Positions 3,228 through 41,415 of a DNA stretch of 60,779 nucleotides are shown one piece after another. Source of the stretch: a virus; the IMG/VR virus record IMGVR_UViG_3300045988_033451, one strand, 5' to 3'. The position numbers and the translations under genes were made by a program. The notes beneath the pieces were generated by a model, which made no database searches, was not told the DNA's origin, and saw only the letters and a list, made by a program, of their open reading frames with translations. Numbering within the stretch: the stretch's first letter is position 1; every line of letters begins with the position of its first letter.

Positions 3228-4154
3228 TTATTCCGGTTTGATTCTCACCGATTCAATTCTCTTCGAAAGTCCTACGGTTCCTTGCAAATTGCCGAATCCT
3301 TCCGCCCATCCGATTGTTTGAATATGACATTGTATCATTGCACCATGTATTTCGATAGCTTCAAGCCGTCTTGCTTCGCCTGTCGTTCCGATAATCGTGT
3401 CCTTTGTGATGATGCCATAATCTCTCCATCCAATGCCTTGAATATGCGCCTTAACTGAAATCTGTCTACCGGCTGGATCAATTTGGATTGCTTCAAGTCT
3501 CTTTGCTTGTCCTGTTACTCCGGCTTCTTCGCCCTCGTTCTTCCAATCTGACCATCCATATGTCTGTTGATGTACTCTATACTTCATAACTCCTTTTACC
3601 TCCTCAATATCATAACTAGGTCTGCCATATCCATAAATACTGTTTGAATTGATGTCGTAAGACTTCTTACATACGCCACCTCCATTCGCGATAACACCAC
3701 TTGCTCCGGACGTGTTTCCCTCGATTGTATAAACTTTGTATCTGTCAACTGCATAAACAAGTCCTGTGTGCTTCACGTTTGATGCACTTCCAAAGAATAT
3801 CTGATCGCCGACCTGTGGCGAAGTAAAGAATCTTCCGATCTGCTTAAAATAGTTAGCAGAATATCCGCATCCGGCTCCAAGCGACTTATCCGGTTGGTTC
3901 AACAACTTCTTAGCATTTTCAATTCCATACGCTTGAATAAAGCACCAATCAACGAACACGTCGCACCATGCATATCCGTTTTTCTTTCCGTTGTAGAAGT
4001 TTGGATATTTGGTGTCAATATCGTTCGCATATTTGGTGTAGTTGTTCGTTCCAGCATTTGCGGTCTTATCGTACAACTGCGCGTTCGTTTTCTTTTCGAG
4101 ATATCCAACTTCATTCATTGCTACCGCAATTACTTTGCTTGCATATAATTCCAT
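3228..4154 (-). CDS. Endolysin with an N-terminal CHAP-like amidase/peptidase domain and three ChW repeats
   Basis: The YAWCDVFV...HTGLVY region is CHAP-like. Three repeats of the (H)xQxxGW...G..G...RLEAI.I type follow. AGGAGG RBS. Confidence 0.85.
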   Translation of the reverse strand: MELYASKVIAVAMNEVGYLEKKTNAQLYDKTANAGTNNYTKYANDIDTKYPNFYNGKKNGYAWCDVFVDWCFIQAYGIENAKKLLNQPDKSLGAGCGYSANYFKQIGRFFTSPQVGDQIFFGSASNVKHTGLVYAVDRYKVYTIEGNTSGASGVIANGGGVCKKSYDINSNSIYGYGRPSYDIEEVKGVMKYRVHQQTYGWSDWKNEGEEAGVTGQAKRLEAIQIDPAGRQISVKAHIQGIGWRDYGIITKDTIIGTTGEARRLEAIEIHGAMIQCHIQTIGWAEGFGNLQGTVGLSKRIESVRIKPE

Positions 4155-26857: not shown

Positions 26858-26980
26858 TTTATATTACCTCCTGTGAAAGATAACAGCACTCCACTTGTGC
26901 TTAGAACCTGTGAACAACAAATCAGCAAACAGACGGTCACAGTTCCGCTTTTCGCTTCGTCAAGCTAGTTTGCTGTAAAG

Positions 26981-27063
26981 TGTAGCAGGTGGATTCGAAC
27001 CACCATCCGGCTTTCATCGTTGTTTTCTGTGCGCACGCCACTCTACCATTGAGATATGCTACA
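26981..27063 (-). ncRNA. tRNA-like element A, with good acceptor, D and T arms but no anticodon stem
   Basis: TGTAGCA/TGCTACA acceptor, GGTGG-TTCGAAT-CCACC T arm, and a 34-nt middle with only 3-4 bp of pairing. Confidence 0.4.
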
Positions 27064-27339
27064 ATGTGCGGTTTCCGATGCAGACATTGTAACCGGTGTG
27101 GTATGCCATGCATCGGAATTTTTTTATTTCAGCAGGGATTACTGCAACGCCTGCTTATTCGGGACTACCCGACCGCTTGATGCGGCGTGGATTTGCACCA
27201 CACATATTCTTCTATAGCAGAACAGACACCCTCCGGGTCCTGCTTACCTATTTGCATACGCATCAACTGAAAAGCAAGATGGTTTTACGGATGCAAAGAT
27301 AACCAACAACTAAGCTCCGAGGTTCATTGCTTTTTCAAA

Positions 27340-27430
27340 CGCCGACAATAGGACTTGAACCTATACGCCGCATAAGCGACTACTGACAGTTTAGCAAACT
27401 GTTCCCTTACCAAATTAGGGTTATATCGGC
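27340..27430 (-). tRNA. tRNA-Ser (GCU), class II
   Basis: GCCGATA/TGTCGGC acceptor, ACAGT-TTGCTAA-ACTGT anticodon arm, 21-nt variable arm and ATAGG-TTCAAGT-CCTAT T arm. No CCA is encoded. Confidence 0.75.
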
Positions 27431-27496
27431 AAAACACCGCCTGTTACGGTATGCACATCCGAAAATGTGCATGGTTGGATTCCACAACATTGGGAG

Positions 27497-27523
27497 AAAC
27501 AAAAAATGTCCCTTTGCAAGGGA
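27497..27523 (-). terminator. Rho-independent terminator after tRNA-like B
   Basis: TCCCTTGCAAAGGGA hairpin followed by CATTTTTTGTTT on the minus strand. Confidence 0.5.
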
Positions 27524-27597
27524 ATCGACACGGAAGATTCGAACTCCACCTATATCGCAATATGCGAATTATGCTATCCAATTACACTACATGTCGA
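27524..27597 (-). ncRNA. tRNA-like element B, cloverleaf-compatible but with a 5-nt (ATATT) or non-canonical 7-nt (CAUAUUG) anticodon loop
   Basis: TCGACAT/GTGTCGA acceptor, TGGAG-TTCGAAT-CTTCC T arm and TCGC-ATATT-GCGA anticodon region. If it is a tRNA, the anticodon would be UAU with A33. Confidence 0.4.
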
Positions 27598-27789
27598 AGC
27601 GACTTTTTTCGCCGCGGGTTAGTCGAAATTGTGTGGCGCACGCGTGAACACCGCGCAAAATCCAAGACTGTTCGTTAGTCAATTATCGCGAATCAGTGAC
27701 ATAGAATCAGACAAGATATTACACTCACAACCCGATAAAAAATAGTTTGTTGCGTCAAAACGTATTCGTGGGTATGCAGGTTGTGAGAT

Positions 27790-27873
27790 ACGAAGCACCC
27801 GGAATCGAACCGGAATTTACGGGAAAACGTGGGGTGTGTAAAACCGTATGATCTGCCATTGATCTATGCTTCG
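27790..27873 (-). ncRNA. tRNA-like element C, with perfect acceptor, D and T arms and a 5-bp anticodon stem closing a 21-nt loop
   Basis: CGAAGCA/TGCTTCG acceptor, GATC-AATGGCA-GATC D arm, TACGG[TTTTACACACCCCACGTTTTC]CCGTA anticodon region and TCCGG-TTCGATT-CCGGG T arm. Confidence 0.4.
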
Positions 27874-28060
27874 TGTGCGCATCCTCTTGGGGAGACAGAC
27901 GCGCAAAAGGAGAAATGTGTGTTCCCCATGGAATAAAGGGGTTTATACGCGCCGGCATTCAACCGGCAAAACCCACCGAGCCTTGTGACGGCTCTTAACA
28001 GCTTTCCGCTAGTGGGTTACGAAAGGAGGATCCTAAAATGAAAAACATTAAGAATCCAAG

Positions 28061-28132
28061 CTGCCCTAGTTGGATTCGAACCAACAACTGCAGGAATCAA
28101 AGTCCTGTGCCTTACCATTTGGCGATAGGGCA
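28061..28132 (-). tRNA. tRNA-Gln (UUG)
   Basis: TGCCCTA/TAGGGCA acceptor, CAGGA-CTTTGAT-TCCTG anticodon arm and GTTGG-TTCGAAT-CCAAC T arm. Close to the Bacillus tRNA-Gln as I recall it. Confidence 0.85.
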
Positions 28133-28140
28133 TAAAACGC

Positions 28141-28734
28141 TTATGCAGCGTGTTCTGACAAAATTCTGTCTAAAGTCGGTCTTGATACACCAATGTTCTT
28201 CGCAAATGCAGACTTGGTGATCTTACCGGACCGGTAAAGAATCAAATTGCTGTCAAGCAATTCGCTATCTACAGTTTTCTTTGTACCGCCCTTGTATTTG
28301 CCTTCTTTCTTTGCAATAGCGATTCCTTCTGCCTGCCGCTCTCTGATATGTTCTCTTTCAAGATTCGCAACGTAGGAAAGAATCTGCAATACCAGATCGG
28401 CGATAAATGTGTCTGTCAAGTCTCCGGTTCTTCCAATAGTCGTGTCAAGTAGTGGCATATCGAGGACCTTAATGCCTGCTTTAATAGTCTTAGTAATTCT
28501 ACGCCATTCCTCCATGATCTCGTCATAGTTTCTGCCGAGCCGGTCGATAGAAAGGATAATTAGAACATCGTCGCTTGTTAAGTTGGCAATCATCTTTTGA
28601 TAATCAGGTCGTTCAAAATCCTTGCCTGATAACTTGTCTGTGTAAATCTTTTCGCATCCAGCATTTTTAAGTGCTTCTAACTGTCTTGCAAGGTTCTGTT
28701 CCTTGGTTGACACTCTCGCATAGCCTATAATCAT
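28141..28734 (-). CDS. Small serine recombinase (resolvase/invertase family, 197 aa)
   Basis: MIIGYARVSTKEQNLARQ... catalytic-Ser motif, SIDRLGRN, and a C-terminal HTH (SAFAKNIGVSRPTLDRIL). Confidence 0.85.
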   Translation of the reverse strand: MIIGYARVSTKEQNLARQLEALKNAGCEKIYTDKLSGKDFERPDYQKMIANLTSDDVLIILSIDRLGRNYDEIMEEWRRITKTIKAGIKVLDMPLLDTTIGRTGDLTDTFIADLVLQILSYVANLEREHIRERQAEGIAIAKKEGKYKGGTKKTVDSELLDSNLILYRSGKITKSAFAKNIGVSRPTLDRILSEHAA

Positions 28735-28782
28735 AATCACACACCCCTTATCTTTAATTGATATGGGTATTATATCACAAAA

Positions 28783-28847
28783 TGCAATGCTTTGCAATGC
28801 TTTGCAGTGCATTTTATTGCTTTGCAGTGCTTTGCATTGCAATATTT
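28783..28847. promoter_or_regulatory. Six 10-bp-phased TGCTTTGCA(N) repeats overlapping the divergent promoters
   Basis: Units begin at 28788, 28798, 28808, 28818, 28828 and 28838. A TTGCAA-17-TATATT promoter faces the RHH gene. Confidence 0.5.
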
Positions 28848-32892: not shown

Positions 32893-32933
32893 CCTTCGCC
32901 ATCTGGCGTCCTTTCGTTTTTGTTTGGTCTTAT

Positions 32934-32951
32934 TATAACGATATCGTTATA
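32934..32951. promoter_or_regulatory. Perfect 18-bp palindrome TATAACGATATCGTTATA
   Basis: Seen directly. Same word family as the sites at 33231-33434. Confidence 0.6.
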
Positions 32952-32978
32952 TTATGTCAATAGTTTTTCCTACTTTTT

Positions 32979-33209
32979 TCAATCCATAAACGGACATTTC
33001 CCCGGATCACCTTGATCCGCTTGATCTTCTGTGTTTTTTTGCTGATCTTCTAAGTGATCAAGCACGCATTTAACTATAAACCCGTTCAGGCTTTCGCCTG
33101 CCGCCGCTCTGATCCGCTCCTCGTCTTCTTTTCTGAATCTTACTAGAGCTTTAAAATATGCGTTTTTCTCATATTTAGCGGTTGCTTTTGCTTGTGCCTT
33201 TGTTGCCAT
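32979..33209 (-). CDS. Ribbon-helix-helix regulator
   Basis: KALVRFRKEDEERIRAAAGESLNGFIVKCVLDHL has an RHH pattern. The gene is flanked by palindromic sites. Confidence 0.6.
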   Translation of the reverse strand: MATKAQAKATAKYEKNAYFKALVRFRKEDEERIRAAAGESLNGFIVKCVLDHLEDQQKNTEDQADQGDPGKCPFMD

Positions 33210-33230
33210 AATAACGCCACCTTTCTATAT

Positions 33231-33434
33231 AATGATATCGTTATTATAACGCTACTATATATATAAGTCAATACTTTTTATAAAGCTATCGTTATTATAA
33301 CGATACTATATAATATAGAAGAAAAACAGTATATAAAGCTGGCTTTATACATATTGCACAACAAATATATAATGATAGCGTTATATATTTGTGCATTATT
33401 CCGTCTTGCAATAATATAACGATAGCGTTATACT
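33231..33434. promoter_or_regulatory. Divergent early control region with at least four ATAACGATA(T/G)CGTTAT-type sites and a TTGCAA-17-TATACT rightward promoter
   Basis: Sites near 33234-33254, 33285-33306, 33372-33388 and 33415-33430. The -35 is at 33406-33411 and the -10 at 33429-33434. Confidence 0.55.
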
Positions 33435-33481
33435 ATAACCAAGTTAAGAAACCAAGCACCAAACGAAAGGAAGAAAACAAT

Positions 33482-33595
33482 ATGAAAAATTACAAAATCA
33501 CAGACAAGGCAACAAAGGCAATAATCGGGATCATAGCAATGACACCAGATCAGGCGCGGAAGGTTGAAAAGGATTTCATAGTTAAGGAGGTATAA
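33482..33595 (+). CDS. Tiny ORF P1 (37 aa)
   Basis: AAAGGAAG RBS, first gene of the rightward operon. Confidence 0.4.
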   Translation: MKNYKITDKATKAIIGIIAMTPDQARKVEKDFIVKEV

Positions 33596-33597
33596 AC

Positions 33598-33852
33598 ATG
33601 ATAATAGGAATGTTAAACAACGGAACAACATGTACATACGATTTACCATCAGAGGTAAAGACAGCGGAAGAATTTAAAAGCCTTATATATGGCTACAATG
33701 ACGGAAGAATGGCAGAAAGCCAGCGTGAAGAACTTTACAACCAGCCTAAATTATTGGGCTTGAATGGTCCTATGTGGGGCGGCTGGGGAACTCTTAAAAG
33801 CACAGGCGAAACGGTCGCAATAATTCGATATGAAAAACCTTTAAATTTTTAG
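33598..33852 (+). CDS. Small ORF P2 (84 aa)
   Basis: GGAGG RBS. Confidence 0.55.
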   Translation: MIIGMLNNGTTCTYDLPSEVKTAEEFKSLIYGYNDGRMAESQREELYNQPKLLGLNGPMWGGWGTLKSTGETVAIIRYEKPLNF

Positions 33853-33913
33853 CCGAAACGCTCCGATCTTGGAGCGTCCACCGCGGGACGGTCTCCCGGT
33901 GCTGATGATGGCA
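33851..33913 (+). ncRNA. Hammerhead ribozyme motif HH1 (type II topology)
   Basis: GAA at 33855-57. Stem III is ACGCTCC/GGAGCGT (A15.1-U16.1) and C17 is at 33878. Stem I hairpin spans 33879-33901 and CUGAUGA spans 33902-08. Stem II is short (GGC/GCC with one extra U). Confidence 0.55.
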
Positions 33914-33932
33914 GACCAGAAAGGAAAAAAAT

Positions 33933-34085
33933 ATGAAATACACAATCAAGATCAGCGGAAAACAGTATAACGACAATTACACATATGACACACATAATGA
34001 CGGTGACTTCTTCGGAGAGATCAAGGAGATCATCGAAGAGATCGAAAAGGGAAATATTGATACCTTGGAATTATCAAAAAATTAG
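33933..34085 (+). CDS. Tiny ORF P3 (50 aa)
   Basis: AGAAAGGA RBS. Translation is MKYTIKISGKQYNDNYTYDTHNDGDFFGEIKEIIEEIEKGNIDTLELSKN. Preferred over the track ORF 33985..34233. Confidence 0.5.
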   Translation: MKYTIKISGKQYNDNYTYDTHNDGDFFGEIKEIIEEIEKGNIDTLELSKN

Positions 34086-34145
34086 TGTCGAAACCGCCCG
34101 CGCGGCGGTCTTGCGTAGGCTGGCAACCTTGCAACTGATGAGACA
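34086..34145 (+). ncRNA. Hammerhead ribozyme motif HH2 (type II topology)
   Basis: TGTC precedes GAA (34090-92). Stem III is ACCGCC/GGCGGT and C17 is at 34110. Stem I hairpin spans 34111-34134, CUGAUGA spans 34135-41, and GACA pairs with TGTC to form stem II. Confidence 0.65.
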
Positions 34146-34175
34146 AGCCGGATATATGAAAGGATGGTTGATTTT

Positions 34176-34352
34176 ATGGAATTTATGGAAAAATTGCAGA
34201 AGCAGAAAGACGAAGCAAAAGCGGCATACATAAAGGCGCGCGGCGAATGGTGGGAAACAAGAACCGCGCAAAATGTCAATGGCGATTTTGAAAAATGGAA
34301 AATTGTATGTGACAAAAAGCGCGATTGTATGCGCTTGGGCGTTCTTGTGTAG
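34176..34352 (+). CDS. Small ORF P4 (58 aa)
   Basis: AAAGGA RBS. The ATG at 34164 is an alternative start. Confidence 0.45.
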   Translation: MEFMEKLQKQKDEAKAAYIKARGEWWETRTAQNVNGDFEKWKIVCDKKRDCMRLGVLV

Positions 34353-34400
34353 GCAAGTGCAGACGGTGCAACTTTCCGGGGTTCGATCTCCCCGGCTTGC
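34353..34400 (+). ncRNA. T-arm/acceptor-like minihelix element 1
   Basis: GCAAG...CTTGC outer stem stacked on CCGGGG-TTCGATCT-CCCCGG. It starts at the first nt after the stop codon and is followed by TTTT. Confidence 0.4.
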
Positions 34401-34446
34401 TTTTACCCGGATAACCGGGTAAAATTAAAACATGGAGGTGTTGAAC

Positions 34447-34641
34447 ATGACAATTATTGAAAAAATGCAGAAGGACGGATATCCGAAAATTATAAAAGGA
34501 AATGGAGGTTTTAGAGCATATTTGAAAGATATACAGCCTTTGGGCGGTGGTGATTATATGGCCATATATAGTTATCCCGGCGGCGAATGCTGCCACAGCC
34601 TGGAAGAGATACAAAAATGTTTTGAAATCATCGAACAATAA
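34447..34641 (+). CDS. Small ORF P5 (64 aa)
   Basis: TGGAGGTG RBS. Confidence 0.55.
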   Translation: MTIIEKMQKDGYPKIIKGNGGFRAYLKDIQPLGGGDYMAIYSYPGGECCHSLEEIQKCFEIIEQ

Positions 34642-34686
34642 CCGCCGCAGAGGATGCACGCCGGAGCGATACCGGCGGCGGTTTTT
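34641..34686 (+). terminator. Minihelix element 2 / intrinsic terminator
   Basis: ACCGC...GCGGT outer stem with a CGCCGG-AGCGATA-CCGGCG inner stem, or alternatively an 8-bp ACCGCCGC/GCGGCGGT stem. Followed by T5. Confidence 0.5.
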
Positions 34687-34726
34687 CCCGGAATTGGGAA
34701 TAATTGAAATATGGAGGTATGGAACT

Positions 34727-34891
34727 ATGGAGATAACGAGGAAATTTGCAAGTTGCTATTCAGTGACACAAGGGGAAAAGATTTTATTTAATGGCAGCAT
34801 GGCGGAGTGCGTCGAGTATTTGAAAAAGCGCGGAATAGTTGTTGAATTTTGCGGATTATGCAACGAAAAAATAAAGTATAGCCGCATATAG
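34727..34891 (+). CDS. Small ORF P6 (54 aa)
   Basis: TGGAGGTA RBS. Confidence 0.5.
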   Translation: MEITRKFASCYSVTQGEKILFNGSMAECVEYLKKRGIVVEFCGLCNEKIKYSRI

Positions 34892-34933
34892 CAACGTTTG
34901 AGCATTGCGCCCGGTTCGATTTCGGGCGGTTGC
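34891..34933 (+). ncRNA. T-arm/acceptor-like minihelix element 3
   Basis: GCAAC...GTTGC outer stem stacked on CGCCCGG-TTCGATT-TCGGGCG. The loop matches the tRNA T-loop consensus. Confidence 0.4.
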
Positions 34934-35053
34934 ATTTGTTCTTGAAATAATAATAAAAAGGTGTATAATATGTATAATTTCTGCTATTGCAGATAATAAC
35001 ATATATCTTTATTTTGAGGACGCAAAAAATAAAACAAAATGGAGGTATACAAA

Positions 35054-35299
35054 ATGGAAAATTTGACACAGAAAGAAATGGAAGCTATCAAAAAAGCACT
35101 TGAAGAATTGGGATATTCAGAAATTGCGAAAAACTCAGACGACATGGCGCGCTGGTATGATGATGGGACTATAAGCATTAACACCGCTCGGAATGGTCGC
35201 GCTGTTGCTTGGGTGCTTCTTGAATCTTCCGAAAAGGCGTTATATGTCGACACGCTCGAAGAGTTGAGTGAAAAAGAAATAATCGATCAATTATGCTAA
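35054..35299 (+). CDS. Small ORF P7 (81 aa)
   Basis: TGGAGGTA RBS. Confidence 0.55.
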   Translation: MENLTQKEMEAIKKALEELGYSEIAKNSDDMARWYDDGTISINTARNGRAVAWVLLESSEKALYVDTLEELSEKEIIDQLC

Positions 35300-35304
35300 T
35301 TCAA

Positions 35305-35327
35305 AGCCGGGAAACCCCGGCTTTTTG
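35305..35327 (+). terminator. Rho-independent terminator of the rightward operon
   Basis: AGCCGGG-AAAC-CCCGGCT hairpin followed by TTTTT. Confidence 0.7.
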
Positions 35328-35507: not shown

Positions 35508-35716
35508 AGATCAGCAAGACAGACACCCGGAGAAGTGCGCCCGGATTCCATATGCCGGAGCATGGCGGAAGATCAGGACACCAAACCGGCGCAGCGGTAT
35601 ATCCGGAATTTGTGCAACATGTCGGCGATCTGCAAAAGATCAGCGCAAACGATCAGCACGCACCCGGACAGGTCCCGGAGTGAATCGCCCAAGATCAGCC
35701 AGCCGGCGAAGATCAG
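35508..35716 (+). repeat. Cluster of six direct (A/C)GATCAG heptamers plus one inverted GATC site within 210 bp
   Basis: Copies at 35508, 35570, 35637, 35650, 35692 and 35710, with the inverted site at 35627. The local sequence is GC-rich. Confidence 0.7.
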
Positions 35717-39761: not shown

Positions 39762-39904
39762 ATTCTATTACAGGTGTTACCATATTCAAAAAGTGTTACC
39801 TATGGTGTTCACTCTTGATTTTATGGAGAAAAATAAGCGACATACAATTTTCTCCTTTCCTAGTAAAATCAAGGCTTCCCAAGGATTTTCATTTAATTAA
39901 AAAA

Positions 39905-39928
39905 GTAGCGGAAGGGGGATTTGAACCC
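39905..39928 (-). other. attP core candidate resembling a tRNA 3' end (GGGTTCAAATCCCCCTTCCGCTAC)
   Basis: T-loop plus 3' acceptor strand only, with no 5' half. It lies 40 nt downstream of int. GTGTTAC-type repeats are at 39774, 39793, 39805, 39981 and 39990. Confidence 0.55.
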
Positions 39929-39967
39929 TTTCACTATTCCTTTATCTGCGCATAAATGCTATGTTTT

Positions 39968-41215
39968 TCAGGATTTAAAAGTGTTGCCCGTGTTACCTTT
40001 TCGGCATAAAGCGTTCACAACAAGTTCTTTTACTTCATCTCTTCCGTGATTGTTGAAGTAATAATATTTTTTCGTTGTCTCTATGTCCTCATGCCCCATT
40101 TGATTCTCAATCACGCTATCAGGAACGTTTGCATCAATTAACTTCGTTGAATATGTTTTTCGTATTTTGTGAAGTGATCTCTGCTTAATTCCCAATTTGT
40201 TACATATCCGATACAGTTTTCTCGAAAACAAATATCCCTTGATGCGCTGTCCGTCTTTGAAGAATAGATAATCATTAAACGGATTCAACGCTCGAATACG
40301 CTTAATAATCATTTTCGCTTCCGGTGTCAAATACACAGTTCTGTACCCGGCTTTTGTCTTAGGTGCATCCCTTACATCAAAAACATAGTTTCCATCTTCA
40401 TCACGATATCTAATTTCCGTCTTAGTGATTGATATAGAATCTTCTTTTACATCTTTCCACATGAGGGCGGATAATTCTCCCGATCGTAGCCCGGTTTGGA
40501 ATGTAAGCAAAATTCCAAGTCCAAGTAAAGAATCTCGCTCCGCATTTATGCACCATTCAATCTTCGCTTCTTCGGAATCCGTAAAAACTTGTTCTTCGCT
40601 TGAAGTGTAGGTTTTCTTGAAAGATTTATCAGAAATCTCCAAATCTCCAATAAATGATGTAATGCTTATCGAAGTAAGTCCTCGCTTTTTTCCACGCTTG
40701 AATATTCCGTTTATGAGCGTTCTAAGATTTCCCCACGCTTTTGATGTAAGCTGTTTCTCTTTGATCGTCGTCCGAATAAAATCTTCCAGATCATCTTCTG
40801 TGATATATCTGAATTTTATCTGCGCAATATGAGAATTTTTAATATATTTAATAAAATCTGTTTTGTATCTATCTGCTGTTTGCTTTTCTATTTCTCCGTA
40901 TTTAAGCTTTCTATCTAACCATTCATCAAATACGTCATCTATATAAGGCTCGTTTTCTTGTTCCTTATAAAACTGAACAATAGCATCATTCAATGCCTGT
41001 TCTGTTGTTCTCTTTATCAACCTCTTTCCTCTGCTATATTTTTCGTCTGGCAGATATGTATAAAACTTTCCGTCTTTACTCTGCCAGATGCTATAATTGT
41101 GATTTTCAATGTACCGATTTCTTTCGTTCATTTCAATCTTTTGTTGTATGTCGCTTACGTCGATAATACCATTTTCGATAGCGAAATTCAACAATTCTTT
41201 GTCGGAAAGTTCCAT
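39968..41215 (-). CDS. int: Tyrosine integrase
   Basis: AGGAGG RBS before MELSDKEL. The C-terminal catalytic region contains ...HKIRKTYSTKLIDANV...MGHEDIETTKKYYY. Confidence 0.85.
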   Translation of the reverse strand: MELSDKELLNFAIENGIIDVSDIQQKIEMNERNRYIENHNYSIWQSKDGKFYTYLPDEKYSRGKRLIKRTTEQALNDAIVQFYKEQENEPYIDDVFDEWLDRKLKYGEIEKQTADRYKTDFIKYIKNSHIAQIKFRYITEDDLEDFIRTTIKEKQLTSKAWGNLRTLINGIFKRGKKRGLTSISITSFIGDLEISDKSFKKTYTSSEEQVFTDSEEAKIEWCINAERDSLLGLGILLTFQTGLRSGELSALMWKDVKEDSISITKTEIRYRDEDGNYVFDVRDAPKTKAGYRTVYLTPEAKMIIKRIRALNPFNDYLFFKDGQRIKGYLFSRKLYRICNKLGIKQRSLHKIRKTYSTKLIDANVPDSVIENQMGHEDIETTKKYYYFNNHGRDEVKELVVNALCRKGNTGNTFKS

Positions 41216-41415
41216 GCAGACACCTCCTTCCATTTGCGTTTTATTTCCCTGACAGTTCTTTCAACTGTGCTTACAGATATGCTTAATTTGTACGAAACTT
41301 CCTTCTGTGTGCTTCCCCGGCACAACATTCTAAAAATCTGTTCTTCTTCGTCCGTAAAGTTTGCTTTAGTAAGAATCCCCTCAATTTCCGGCTTAGTAAG
41401 TCTACTAAACTTCAT
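41188..41415 (-). CDS. Small sigma70-r4/LuxR-type HTH protein
   Basis: LTKPEIEGIL...QIFRMLCRGSTQKEVSYKLSISVSTVERTVREIKRK. Confidence 0.55.
   Translation of the reverse strand: MKFSRLTKPEIEGILTKANFTDEEEQIFRMLCRGSTQKEVSYKLSISVSTVERTVREIKRKWKEVSAWNFPTKNC

What the first reader, a model, noticed from the sequence alone, without database searches (positions are those of the whole stretch)
33851..34145. Two hammerhead ribozyme motifs (type II topology) immediately after stop codons in an operon of tiny ORFs
Both elements carry every invariant hammerhead core position in the correct circular order.

- HH2 (34086-34145): TGTC, then G12A13A14, then stem III ACCGCC/GGCGGT (A15.1-U16.1), then C17 at 34110. 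Next come a stem I hairpin with an internal loop, then C3UGAUGA9, then GACA, which pairs with TGTC to form stem II.
- HH1 (33851-33913): the same order, with stem III ACGCTCC/GGAGCGT and C17 at 33878. Its stem II is weaker (GGC/GCC with one extra U after A9).

Stems I and III are capped by loops and stem II is open, which is the type II arrangement. From memory, hammerheads flanking small genes in Firmicute prophages have been reported, but their function there is unexplained.

Predicted cleavage after C17 would leave each upstream cistron ending in the stem III hairpin. Each downstream cistron would begin with the stem I hairpin, about 25-30 nt before its RBS.
Basis: partly seen in the sequence, partly recalled or inferred. 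Interest (0 to 1): 0.8.

Follow-up and report, generated by a model that had tools for sequence, protein, structure and literature searches.

The report
Hammerhead ribozymes punctuating a phage operon
Two genuine self-cutting RNA motifs (type II hammerhead ribozymes) sit between tiny genes of a gut-bacterial phage, an arrangement described in 2011; the next gene junctions hold tRNA-shaped elements, apparently undescribed, that may do the same cutting job through host enzymes.

Summary
HH1 (33852-33917) matches Rfam Hammerhead_II at 62 bits against a threshold of 37. HH2 (34086-34151) scores only 26.5 bits, but it has every invariant core base, three helices and the type II topology.

Both motifs belong to two hammerhead classes that recur in more than 60 related Lachnospiraceae phage contigs. 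Those copies show compensatory changes in stems I and III.

Clustered hammerheads flanking single prophage genes were described by Perreault et al. in 2011. The finding is therefore a new member of a known kind. The most likely mechanism is self-cleavage of the operon transcript into single-gene mRNAs with hairpin-capped ends.

One feature is new. The next three junctions (34352-34401, 34640-34683, 34891-34933) carry tRNA "top-half" mimics. In relatives these have a 12-bp acceptor/T helix, an invariant TTCGATT loop and strong covariation, and they sit in the same positions as hammerheads. They probably act as RNase P/Z processing sites, which argues that cleavage itself is the selected function.

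One point is unexplained. Half of the class B relatives carry a U4-to-C core change.

The parts
32931..33436 (.). Regulatory region between the divergent 76-aa ORF (32979-33209, minus strand) and the small-ORF operon. It holds five copies of a palindromic operator-like site (ATAACGATATCGTTAT) and promoter-like sites on the plus strand at 33344-33373 and 33406-33434.
   Evidence: the repeat finder; promoter scan
33598..33852 (+). ORF1, 84 aa. Its stop codon TAG (33850-52) overlaps the first base of HH1. It is a real coding gene.
   Evidence: 48 viral loci encode it at 70-86% aa identity. Mismatches by codon position are 0.15, 0.13 and 0.40. No Pfam or PHROG family matches.
33852..33917 (+). HH1, a class A type II hammerhead. 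The predicted cleavage site is between C33878 and C33879. A loop I/3'-tail pseudoknot pairs 33890-94 with 33913-17.
   Evidence: Rfam RF02276 at 62 bits, above the gathering score of 37. Covariation across 31 distinct homologues, including 3 of the 5 pseudoknot pairs.
33933..34085 (+). ORF2, 50 aa. The RBS AAAGGA lies 3-4 nt after the HH1 pseudoknot tail.
34086..34151 (+). HH2, a class B type II hammerhead. The predicted cleavage site is between C34110 and U34111. A possible pseudoknot pairs 34120-24 with 34147-51.
   Evidence: Rfam gives 26.5 bits, below the gathering score. The core is intact. Class B covaries across 18 distinct homologues. The hammerhead fold is -18.0 kcal/mol against an MFE of -18.4.
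34176..34352 (+). ORF3, 58 aa counted from ATG 34176 (62 aa if counted from 34164). The last base of its stop codon TAG is position +1 of the next element.
   Evidence: 19 viral loci encode it at 63-94% identity
34352..34401 (+). E3, a tRNA top-half mimic. The acceptor-like stem is GGCAAGU/GCUUGCU. A small hairpin lies at 34359-69. The T arm is 34376-95, with an 8-nt loop UUCGAUCU that carries one inserted base.
   Evidence: Model R1 gives 32.9 bits, E 2e-5. Fold z-score is -4.3. The best Rfam hit is mascRNA at 20.4 bits, below threshold.
34402..34424 (+). Small hairpin (ACCCGG AUAA CCGGGU) that starts 3 nt after the E3 acceptor end, just before the RBS of ORF4 (34447-34641).
   Evidence: A hairpin of at least 4 bp starts within 7 nt of the acceptor end in 39 of 51 distinct relatives.
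34640..34683 (+). E4. It has the same Y-shaped architecture (AACCGCC ... GGCGGUU, a small hairpin, a GC stem), but its loop AGCGAUA is not a T loop. A U run and a hairpin (34685-34700) follow. Its status as a tRNA mimic is uncertain.
   Evidence: Read directly. It is conserved in 16 loci with a variable loop. R1 gives only 4.7 bits. The scan flags it as terminator-like.
34891..34933 (+). E5, a tRNA top-half mimic (GCAAC ... CGCCCGG UUCGAUU UCGGGCG GUUGC). It lies after ORF5 (34727-34891) and is followed by a promoter-like site at 34942-34969.
   Evidence: R1 gives 15.3 bits, E 0.008 in 3 kb. The L049 copy has a canonical G53-C61 pair. Promoter scan.
35054..35299 (+). ORF6, 81 aa, the last gene of the plus-strand cluster. 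It is followed by a GC hairpin and T run (35306-35326), read as an intrinsic terminator.
   Evidence: sequence read directly

Best explanation
HH1 and HH2 are functional type II hammerhead ribozymes. They lie in the intercistronic spacers of a repressor-controlled operon of tiny genes in a temperate Lachnospiraceae siphophage.

Proposed mechanism: as the polycistronic RNA is made, each ribozyme folds. Stems I and III form hairpins. A 3-4 bp stem II closes the core. Loop I pairs with the 3' tail. The ribozyme then cuts after C17, at 33878/79 and 34110/11.

This separates the cistrons:
- Each upstream mRNA keeps its stop codon and ends in the GC-rich stem III hairpin with a 2',3'-cyclic phosphate.
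- Each downstream mRNA starts with a 5'-OH on the first base of the stem I hairpin, about 20-25 nt before its RBS.

The result would be single-gene mRNAs whose stability and translation are uncoupled from their neighbours.

The next junctions of the same operon use a different device for the same purpose. These are tRNA top-half mimics that host RNase P and/or RNase Z should cut.

What is shown: the sequence and structure identity of the ribozymes, their conservation and covariation, their position, and their interchangeability with the tRNA mimics.

What is inferred: cleavage in vivo, its effect on mRNA fate, and cutting of the tRNA mimics by RNase P/Z.
For: Identity of the ribozymes:
- Rfam RF02276 gives HH1 62 bits, E 1.9e-10.
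- HH2 has the full core, with Watson-Crick pairs next to the core.
- The descriptor scan finds 2 hits in the window and 0 in 200 shuffles.

Conservation and covariation:
- Class A: 31 distinct homologues, 96.4% of cells paired, 10 pairs with compensatory changes, including the pseudoknot (GGUCU/AGACC becomes AGCCU/AGGCU, UCGCC/GGCGA or AGUCU/AGACU).
- Class B: 18 homologues, compensatory changes in stems I and III.
- The core positions that vary in relatives include N7 (U, C, A) and position 17 (C, U), which the consensus leaves free.

Operon context:
- All hammerheads are on the operon strand. In 120 loci found only through the tRNA-mimic 25-mer, 46 hammerheads all lie 270-970 nt upstream on the same strand, and none lie on the other strand in 1.05 Mb.
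- The elements abut stop codons and precede RBSs.
- After the same 84-aa gene, relatives carry class A, class B or a tRNA mimic (L045, L047). This interchangeability fits a shared cleavage role.

Precedent:
- Clustered prophage hammerheads, including C. scindens, cleave during in vitro transcription, and the A. tumefaciens set also cleaves in E. coli (Perreault 2011, PMC3088659).
- Three type II hammerheads near phage-like genes self-cleave in Desulfovibrio vulgaris cells (PMC8782182).
Against: - No cleavage data exist for these sequences.
- HH2 and all class B copies fall below the Rfam gathering score, at 26-30 bits.
- The ribozymes are dispensable. After the same gene some relatives have nothing, a deletion remnant, or a copy with U16.1 changed to C.
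- Half of the distinct class B relatives (27 of 54) carry U4-to-C at an invariant core position yet keep their helices. This is unexpected if fast cleavage is what selection maintains.
- From memory of the glmS literature, RNase J1 degrades 5'-OH RNAs in Bacillus subtilis. The effect of cleavage on downstream mRNA stability could therefore go either way.
- The stop codon overlaps stem II, so a terminating ribosome would unfold the ribozyme.
Confidence: 0.75

Rival explanations
1. The conserved 50-70 nt elements (hammerheads and tRNA mimics) are kept mainly as homology patches at the DNA level. On this view they act as linkers at which co-infecting phages exchange small gene cassettes, and RNA cleavage is secondary or vestigial.
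For: - After the same 84-aa gene and the same class A hammerhead, about ten different downstream genes follow in different contigs.
- L048 is a hammerhead 5' half fused to a tRNA-mimic 3' half.
- The tRNA-mimic 25-mer is identical in at least 120 contigs, while neighbouring proteins are 63-86% identical.
- Both U4 and C4 alleles of class B sit on several stem III backgrounds, as recombination inside the element would produce.
Against: - A DNA linker needs no compensatory base changes, no invariant catalytic core and no pseudoknot covariation, yet all of these are seen.
- All copies lie on the transcribed strand.
- Mosaic joints are an expected by-product of any conserved intergenic sequence.
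Confidence: 0.12
2. The motifs act as RNA structures rather than as catalysts. They could be intercistronic insulators, 3'/5' stabilising hairpins or protein-binding sites, and many copies could be catalytically dead.
For: - 27 of 54 distinct class B relatives have U4-to-C but keep their helices.
- A hammerhead-like RNA with cCgauga from Aedes appears in the primer table of Perreault 2011, and Aedes aegypti is named among the inactive examples of Figure S7. That RNA had more than one deviation from the consensus.
- Remnants and core-mutant copies exist.
Against: - The window's own HH1 and HH2 have perfect cores.
- 117 of 119 distinct copies keep GAAA. In the 3' core, 80 read exactly CUGAUGA, 31 carry the U4-to-C change and 3 differ only at the free N7 position. 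A mere hairpin pair would not need this.
- Class A has only one C4 copy.
Confidence: 0.08
3. Paired hammerheads excise the gene-sized RNA between them (33879-34110, 232 nt, carrying ORF2). An RtcB-type ligase then circularises it or splices the flanks, as happens with retrozymes and viroid-like RNAs.
For: - Cleavage at both sites would leave the 5'-OH and 2',3'-cyclic-phosphate ends that RtcB joins (established chemistry).
- The stem II strands of the two classes are cross-compatible (GUC with GGC), so a joined junction could re-form a hammerhead (inference).
- Perreault 2011 raised this possibility.
Against: - Perreault 2011 looked for spliced or circular products and found none.
- Many junctions have a single hammerhead or a tRNA mimic instead.
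- The operon holds no reverse transcriptase or replicase.
Confidence: 0.04
4. This rival concerns elements E3-E5 only. They would be leaky intrinsic terminators or attenuators that grade expression along the operon, not tRNA mimics.
For: - The scan flags 34376-95, 34659-77 and 34908-28 as terminator-like, each being a GC hairpin followed by a U-rich tail.
- E4 has a variable loop and a UUUUU run.
- The second type of mimic in relatives sits right after a canonical terminator hairpin.
Against: - Terminator loops are not conserved, yet the loop here is UUCGAUU in 46 of 61 distinct copies, with the G52-C62 and G53-C61 pairs essentially invariant (one G-U among 62 rows) as in tRNA.
- The helix always sums to 12 bp wherever the bulge sits.
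- 42 of 51 bulges contain GG, as the D loop does.
Confidence: 0.15

Closest known systems
Hammerhead ribozyme type II (Rfam RF02276), with a loop I/3'-tail pseudoknot (Perreault et al. 2011)
   Same: - The core, the three helices and the open stem II are the same.
- Stem II is short (3-4 bp).
- A pseudoknot of 4-5 bp joins loop I to the bases just after stem II.
- HH1 passes the family threshold.
   Different: - HH2 and its whole class score 26-30 bits, below the threshold of 37, because stem I and its loop differ from the seed.
- Class A carries a conserved extra U between A9 and 10.1.
Clustered hammerheads flanking single genes in prophages (C. scindens, A. caulinodans, A. tumefaciens ardA locus; Perreault 2011, PMC3088659)
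   Same: - Several hammerheads lie a few hundred bases apart on one strand.
- They sit between short genes of unknown function, with variable gene content.
- The host family is the same as for C. scindens (Lachnospiraceae).
   Different: - In this window the array continues with tRNA-like elements instead of further ribozymes.
- I could not compare the actual C. scindens sequences.
Plant mitochondrial t-elements (Forner et al. 2007, PMC1920247), mascRNA at the MALAT1 3' end, and the mitochondrial tRNA punctuation model
   Same: This comparison applies to E3 and E5 and their relatives.
- They are reduced tRNA-like folds with the GGTTCRANYCC T-arm motif.
- They are embedded in long transcripts at mRNA ends.
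- mascRNA is the best Rfam hit, though below threshold.
- Some t-elements also cut inside or at the stop codon.
   Different: - These elements are bacterial and phage-encoded.
- The D and anticodon arms are replaced by a 6-18 nt bulge.
- There is no sequence homology to the organellar or mammalian elements.
- Processing has not been tested.
RNase P cleavage of non-tRNA phage and operon RNAs (phi80 M3 RNA, P1/P7 C4 antisense RNA precursor, E. coli tna/his/rbs/secG intercistronic sites). Recalled from memory, not checked here.
   Same: Host tRNA-processing enzymes are used to cut phage or polycistronic RNAs.
   Different: Those substrates are not recurrent, covarying acceptor/T-arm minihelices placed at successive gene junctions.

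Membership tests
Hammerhead ribozyme | Invariant core C3-U4-G5-A6-N7-G8-A9 and G12-A13-A14 | tested here: met
   HH1 has CUGAUGA at 33902-08 and GAA at 33855-57. HH2 has CUGAUGA at 34135-41 and GAA at 34090-92.
Hammerhead ribozyme | A15.1-U16.1 pair closing stem III, followed by H17 (not G) at the cleavage site | tested here: met
   HH1 has A33858-U33877, then C33878. HH2 has A34093-U34109, then C34110.
Hammerhead ribozyme | Three helices with standard pairs next to the core (10.1-11.1 and 1.1-2.1) | tested here: met
   HH2 has G34142-C34089 and U34111-A34134. HH1 has C33879-G33901 and G33910-C33854, but with one extra U (33909) between A9 and 10.1. That U is conserved in 30 of 31 class A copies.
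Hammerhead ribozyme, type II (RF02276) | Circular order: stems I and III capped by loops, stem II open | tested here: met
Hammerhead ribozyme, type II (RF02276) | Score at or above the Rfam gathering threshold (37 bits) | tested here: inconclusive
   HH1 scores 62 bits and passes. HH2 scores 26.5 bits and fails. Class B relatives score about 30 bits and also fail.
Hammerhead ribozyme | [quoted passage not shown] | tested here: met
   Class A: 5 pairs, 91.6% of cells paired, 3 pairs with changes on both sides. HH2 has a possible 5-bp CUGGC/GCCGG contact, with a duplex estimate of about -6 kcal/mol. Its sub-variant has too few relatives to test.
Hammerhead ribozyme | Helices supported by compensatory changes in homologues | tested here: met
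   In both, 0 of 500 shuffles reach the observed values, and slid controls pair only 25-43% of cells.
Hammerhead ribozyme | Mg-dependent self-cleavage after position 17 | not testable with these tools
   This needs in vitro transcription or end mapping.
tRNA-like processing element (t-element / mascRNA-like), for E3 and E5 | Acceptor-like stem stacked on a T arm (12 bp in all) with the T-loop motif GGTTCRANYCC | tested here: met
   Relatives: 83 hits, 97.7% of cells paired, 10 of 12 pairs with changes on both sides, UUCGAUU loop. The window copies deviate: E3 has a 1-nt loop insertion and E5 has G53-U61.
tRNA (RF00005 / ARAGORN) and mascRNA-menRNA (RF01684) | Match at the family threshold | tested here: not met
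   There is no tRNA call at these sites. mascRNA scores 20-22 bits against a gathering score of 42.5. The resemblance is one of architecture, not of membership.
tRNA-like processing element | Cleavage by RNase P at +1 and/or by RNase Z after the discriminator | not testable with these tools
   Inference only.
Intrinsic terminator (considered for E3-E5) | GC-rich hairpin directly followed by a U run, with no conserved loop | tested here: inconclusive
   The scan flags these sites. However, the loop sequence and the 12-bp geometry are conserved in E3- and E5-type copies. E4-type copies fit a terminator better.

The most novel reading that the evidence does not exclude
This family of Lachnospiraceae phages punctuates an operon of tiny genes with two interchangeable kinds of RNA cut site. 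One kind is the self-cleaving hammerhead. The other is a previously undescribed tRNA top-half mimic: a 12-bp acceptor/T helix, an invariant UUCGAUU loop, a GG-containing bulge, a U-rich trailer and then a 5' hairpin. Host RNase P and/or RNase Z would cut the mimic, which would make it a bacterial-virus counterpart of mitochondrial tRNA punctuation and plant t-elements. If so, the long-open question of what prophage hammerheads are for has a direct answer, cleavage itself. It also becomes testable by swapping one device for the other.
Probability: 0.45. Interest if true: 0.7.

Novelty: new member of a known kind. Interest (0 to 1): 0.42.

Why it matters
The hammerheads themselves add little. 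The family, the type II topology, the pseudoknot and the clustered prophage arrangement were all published in 2011.

Their value lies in the context. This phage group offers more than 100 natural variants of one operon. In these variants the same gene junction carries a class A hammerhead, a class B hammerhead, a tRNA-like minihelix, a decayed ribozyme or nothing.

That is a ready-made comparison for asking what bacterial and phage hammerheads do, which reviews still list as unknown (PMC6765202). If tRNA-processing enzymes cut the tRNA mimics, the shared property of the two devices is RNA cleavage at gene boundaries.

The frequent U4-to-C class B copies offer a natural test of whether fast catalysis is needed.

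On the practical side, class B hammerheads are missed at the Rfam threshold.

Tried and rejected
- Chance match: rejected.
- Other known RNA families at the three later junctions: a relaxed Rfam scan gives only a sub-threshold mascRNA hit, with no twister, pistol, hatchet or significant RAGATH hit.
- True tRNA genes or tRNA fragments at E3-E5: ARAGORN and RF00005 find none.
- attP-type tRNA 3' fragments: rejected. Both acceptor strands are present and covary. The likely attP is elsewhere, next to the integrase.
- Function of the small proteins: there are no Pfam or PHROG families for any of the seven plus-strand ORFs.
- GenBank phage records: only three short hits, all to the HH1 region, and none to the tRNA mimic. 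No annotated relative was available.
- MAFFT alignment of all tRNA mimics misplaced the 5' strand. I therefore built a covariance model from 15 equal-length copies. The pair counts on its alignment lean towards the model, but RNAalifold on the seed gives the same structure.
- Literature searches for phage tRNA-like punctuation found nothing.
- The 2015 paper that defined the RAGATH motifs is not held, so a prior description there cannot be excluded.
- Codon-position test for the 62-aa gene was noisy because of frame offsets in my slices, and I do not use it.
Full report
**Observation**

The details are as follows.

- HH1. Stem II is GCC 33852-54 paired with GGC 33910-12, with an extra U33909 after A9. 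G12A13A14 lies at 33855-57. Stem III has 8 pairs (33858-65 with 33870-77) closed by A15.1-U16.1. C17 is 33878. Stem I is 33879-86 paired with 33895-901, with one bulged C. C3UGAUGA9 lies at 33902-08.
- HH2. Stem II is UGUC 34086-89 paired with GACA 34142-45. GAA lies at 34090-92. Stem III has 6 pairs (34093-98 with 34104-09). C17 is 34110. Stem I is 34111-19 paired with 34127-34, with a bulged U. CUGAUGA lies at 34135-41.
- Both have stems I and III capped and stem II open, which is the type II order.
- HH1 begins on the G of the TAG that ends an 84-aa ORF. HH2 begins on the base after the TAG of a 50-aa ORF.

**Is it more than chance?**

- Rfam's Hammerhead_II model (RF02276) gives HH1 62 bits against a gathering score of 37, with E 1.9e-10 for the whole window.
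- HH2 gets only 26.5 bits, E 0.084 in a 14-kb scan.
- A descriptor of my own requires the core, the type II order and stems of at least 5, 5 and 3 pairs. It finds exactly these two sites on both strands of the window and none in 200 dinucleotide shuffles.
- The hammerhead fold of HH2 lies within 0.4 kcal/mol of its minimum free energy, before counting a tertiary pseudoknot.

In both elements the bases just 3' of stem II can pair with loop I. In HH1, GGUCU 33890-94 pairs with AGACC 33913-17. In HH2, CUGGC 34120-24 pairs with GCCGG 34147-51. Perreault et al. 2011 showed that this pseudoknot is typical of type II hammerheads and is needed for fast cleavage (PMC3088659). The elements therefore end at 33917 and 34151, only 3-9 nt before the next RBS.

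**Relatives**

- The 84-aa and 62-aa proteins retrieve 67 IMG/VR loci from phage contigs of about 55-60 kb. They also retrieve two Lachnospiraceae MAG contigs.
- The window itself is a temperate siphophage genome. It encodes terminase, portal, tape measure, integrase, RecT and a DnaD-like protein.
- Both hammerheads recur in the relatives as two classes.

Class A (like HH1), 31 distinct sequences:
- 96.4% of cells are paired, and 10 of 23 pairs have changes on both sides.
- No shuffle out of 500 reaches these values, and slid controls pair only 35-43% of cells.
- Three of the five pseudoknot pairs covary. Examples are AGCCU/AGGCU in L045, UCGCC/GGCGA in L051 and AGUCU/AGACU in L064.

Class B (like HH2), 18 distinct sequences:
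- 88.9% of cells are paired, with compensatory changes in stems I and III.

Core variation and Rfam scores:
- Core positions that vary in relatives include N7 (U, C, A) and position 17 (C or U), the two that the hammerhead consensus leaves free.
- Only class A reaches the Rfam threshold. Class B never does.

**Verdict on the finding**

Both motifs are genuine type II hammerheads. The kind and the arrangement are already published. [quoted passage not shown] They show cleavage of the C. scindens, A. caulinodans and A. tumefaciens clusters during transcription. Type II hammerheads near phage-like genes also cleave in vivo in Desulfovibrio vulgaris (PMC8782182).

**The operon**

- A region with five palindromic operator-like sites (32931-33436) separates a divergent 76-aa ORF from a plus-strand run of tiny genes.
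- The genes are ORF0 33482-33595, ORF1 33598-33852, ORF2 33933-34085, ORF3 34176-34352, ORF4 34447-34641, ORF5 34727-34891 and ORF6 35054-35299. A GC hairpin and T run follow at 35306-26.
- None of the proteins matches Pfam or PHROGs.
- ORF1 shows a coding pattern of substitution, with mismatch fractions of 0.15, 0.13 and 0.40 by codon position.

**A second kind of element**

The three junctions after HH2 are also structured.

- E3 (34352-34401) folds with a z-score of -4.3.
- Relatives show a clear consensus: AGCAAG, a bulge of 6-15 nt, CCGGGG-UUCGAUU-CCCCGG, then CUUGCU. This is a 6-7 bp acceptor-like stem stacked on a canonical T arm.
- Wherever the bulge sits, the two helices sum to 12 bp, which is the length of the tRNA top half.
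- Other copies keep the shape with different sequences: GCUUGC/GCAAGC, AGUGAC/GUCACU, GCAAC/GUUGC and GGCCG/CGGC.

A covariance model built from 15 copies gives these results:
- It finds 83 matches in the 68 sources, all but one on the operon strand.
- 97.7% of cells are paired, against 72% in shuffles.
- 10 of 12 pairs have changes on both sides.
- The two pairs equivalent to tRNA G52-C62 and G53-C61 are essentially invariant, with a single G-U among 62 rows.
- RNAalifold predicts the same structure on its own.

Further features of the distinct copies:
- The loop is UUCGAUU in 46 of 61.
- 42 of 51 bulges contain GG, as the D loop does.
- The base after the helix is U in 36 of 51, usually followed by UUA.
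- A small hairpin starts within 7 nt in 39 of 51, just before the next RBS.

Distribution and database matches:
- The exact 25-mer occurs in at least 120 IMG/VR contigs.
- No tRNA finder or Rfam family claims these sites.
- The best sub-threshold Rfam hit is mascRNA-menRNA, at 20-22 bits against a gathering score of 42.5. mascRNA is the reduced tRNA-like RNA that RNase P and RNase Z cut from the MALAT1 3' end.

The window's own copies are somewhat off-consensus:
- E3 has one extra base in the T loop and an added mini-hairpin (32.9 bits).
- E5 (34891-34933) has G53-U61 (15.3 bits, E 0.008 in 3 kb).
- E4 (34640-34683) has the same Y shape and the same downstream hairpin. Its loop varies among 16 relatives, and it scores 4.7 bits. 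I leave E4 open, since it could equally be a leaky terminator.

**Why the two kinds of element belong together**

- In 120 loci found only through the tRNA-mimic 25-mer, the descriptor finds 46 hammerheads. All are on the mimic's strand and 270-970 nt upstream of it. None is on the other strand in 1.05 Mb.
- After the same 84-aa gene, different contigs carry one of the following:
  - a class A hammerhead;
  - a class B hammerhead;
  - a class B remnant that keeps only the last 25 nt or so;
  - nothing;
  - a tRNA mimic (L045, L047).
- L048 joins the 5' half of a hammerhead to the 3' half of a mimic.
- Both devices start at or within 3 nt of a stop codon and end shortly before an RBS.

**Mechanism, and what is inferred**

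The ribozyme anatomy and its conservation are shown. The following steps are inferred:
- The hammerheads cut the polycistronic RNA after C17. This leaves the upstream mRNA with its stop codon and a 3' stem III hairpin. It leaves the downstream mRNA with a base-paired 5'-OH end (stem I) ahead of its RBS.
- For the mimics, RNase Z would cut after the discriminator U. This fits CCA-less, U-rich trailers, as recalled from the B. subtilis RNase Z literature. The downstream mRNA would then begin 2-3 nt before a hairpin.
- RNase P may cut at +1.
- In 20 distinct copies, E3 among them, +1 is the last base of the stop codon. An RNase P cut there would remove the stop codon. This has a precedent in plant mitochondrial t-elements at nad6 and ccmC (PMC1920247), but it counts against a simple RNase P model.

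**Points against, and loose ends**

- The ribozymes are dispensable, and some copies are mutated. L019 has U16.1 changed to C.
- Class B relatives split 27 to 27 (distinct sequences) between CUGAUGA and CCGAUGA. The second form changes the invariant U4. Both alleles occur on several stem III backgrounds with pairing kept. Class A has one such copy.
- Three readings of the C4 copies remain open. They may be dead and spread by recombination within the element. C4 may give slow cleavage that is tolerated. Or catalysis may not be what is selected.
- About ten different genes follow the same class A hammerhead in different contigs. The elements are therefore also mosaic joints. I treat that as a consequence of their conservation rather than their purpose, because DNA linkers would not show compensatory changes.

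**Novelty and score**

- The hammerheads are a new member of a known kind.
- I found the tRNA top-half mimics neither in Rfam 15 nor in the searchable literature.
- The 2015 paper that lists RNAs associated with hammerhead and twister neighbourhoods was not available, so a prior description cannot be ruled out.
- Overall interest is moderate. The reading that phages use ribozymes and tRNA mimics interchangeably as mRNA punctuation would be considerably more interesting if it were confirmed.

Noticed in passing
window 34352-34401, 34640-34683, 34891-34933 (+); relatives such as L009 3837-3884: tRNA top-half mimics (a 12-bp acceptor/T helix, a UUCGAUU loop, a GG bulge) sit at the gene junctions that follow the hammerheads. 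The model finds 83 copies in 68 sources with strong covariation. The best Rfam hit is a sub-threshold match to mascRNA. I could not find a prior description.
   Followed up: yes
relatives L012, L014, L017, L018, L026, L031, L045, L047, L049-L057 and others (class B hammerheads): Half of the distinct class B hammerheads (27 of 54; 43 loci against 37) read CCGAUGA. This is U4-to-C at an invariant core position, with all helices kept and on several stem III backgrounds. The window's HH2 has the canonical U4.
   Followed up: partly
L010, L011, L021, L022, L027, L037 at about 3253-3290; L048 3253-3300; L019 3254-3326: Decayed copies occur after the same 84-aa gene. Some are class B remnants that keep only ...AUGAGACAGGRYGCACA. 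L048 is a chimera of a hammerhead 5' half and a tRNA-mimic 3' half. L019 is a class A copy with U16.1 changed to C. About ten different genes follow the same class A hammerhead.
   Followed up: partly
window 32931-33436: Five copies of a palindromic operator-like site (ATAACGATATCGTTAT) lie between a divergent 76-aa ORF (32979-33209, minus strand, weak match to PHROG 13890) and the small-ORF operon. This suggests a repressor-controlled early or accessory operon.
   Followed up: partly
window 39895-39930 (-), just after the integrase gene 39968-41233 (-): GGGTTCAAATCCCCCTTCCGCTAC looks like the 3' part of a tRNA or tmRNA (T loop plus acceptor 3' strand), without the 5' strand. It is the likely attP core. 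Rfam gives only a chance-level tmRNA 3'-end hit here (9.4 bits).
   Followed up: no
window 35508-35716 (+): Five exact AGATCAG repeats, plus variants, lie in a GC-rich non-coding stretch of about 210 nt after the operon terminator. The window holds 16 copies in all against 8.2 expected. The arrangement is iteron-like and its function is unknown.
   Followed up: no
window 26907-28132 (-): An int-alpA RNA (RF02996, 50 bits) lies next to three tRNA genes (Ser-GCU, Val-UAC, Gln-UUG). ARAGORN alone calls the Val gene (86 nt); Rfam does not at its threshold. A serine-recombinase or invertase-like ORF follows at 28141-28842.
   Followed up: no
window 34942-34969 (+): A strong promoter-like site (TTGAAA, 16 nt, TATAAT) lies immediately after E5. 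ORF6 may therefore have its own promoter, and E5 may mark the 3' end of the upstream transcript. In relatives the second type of tRNA mimic sits between a terminator hairpin and a promoter-like site.
   Followed up: partly
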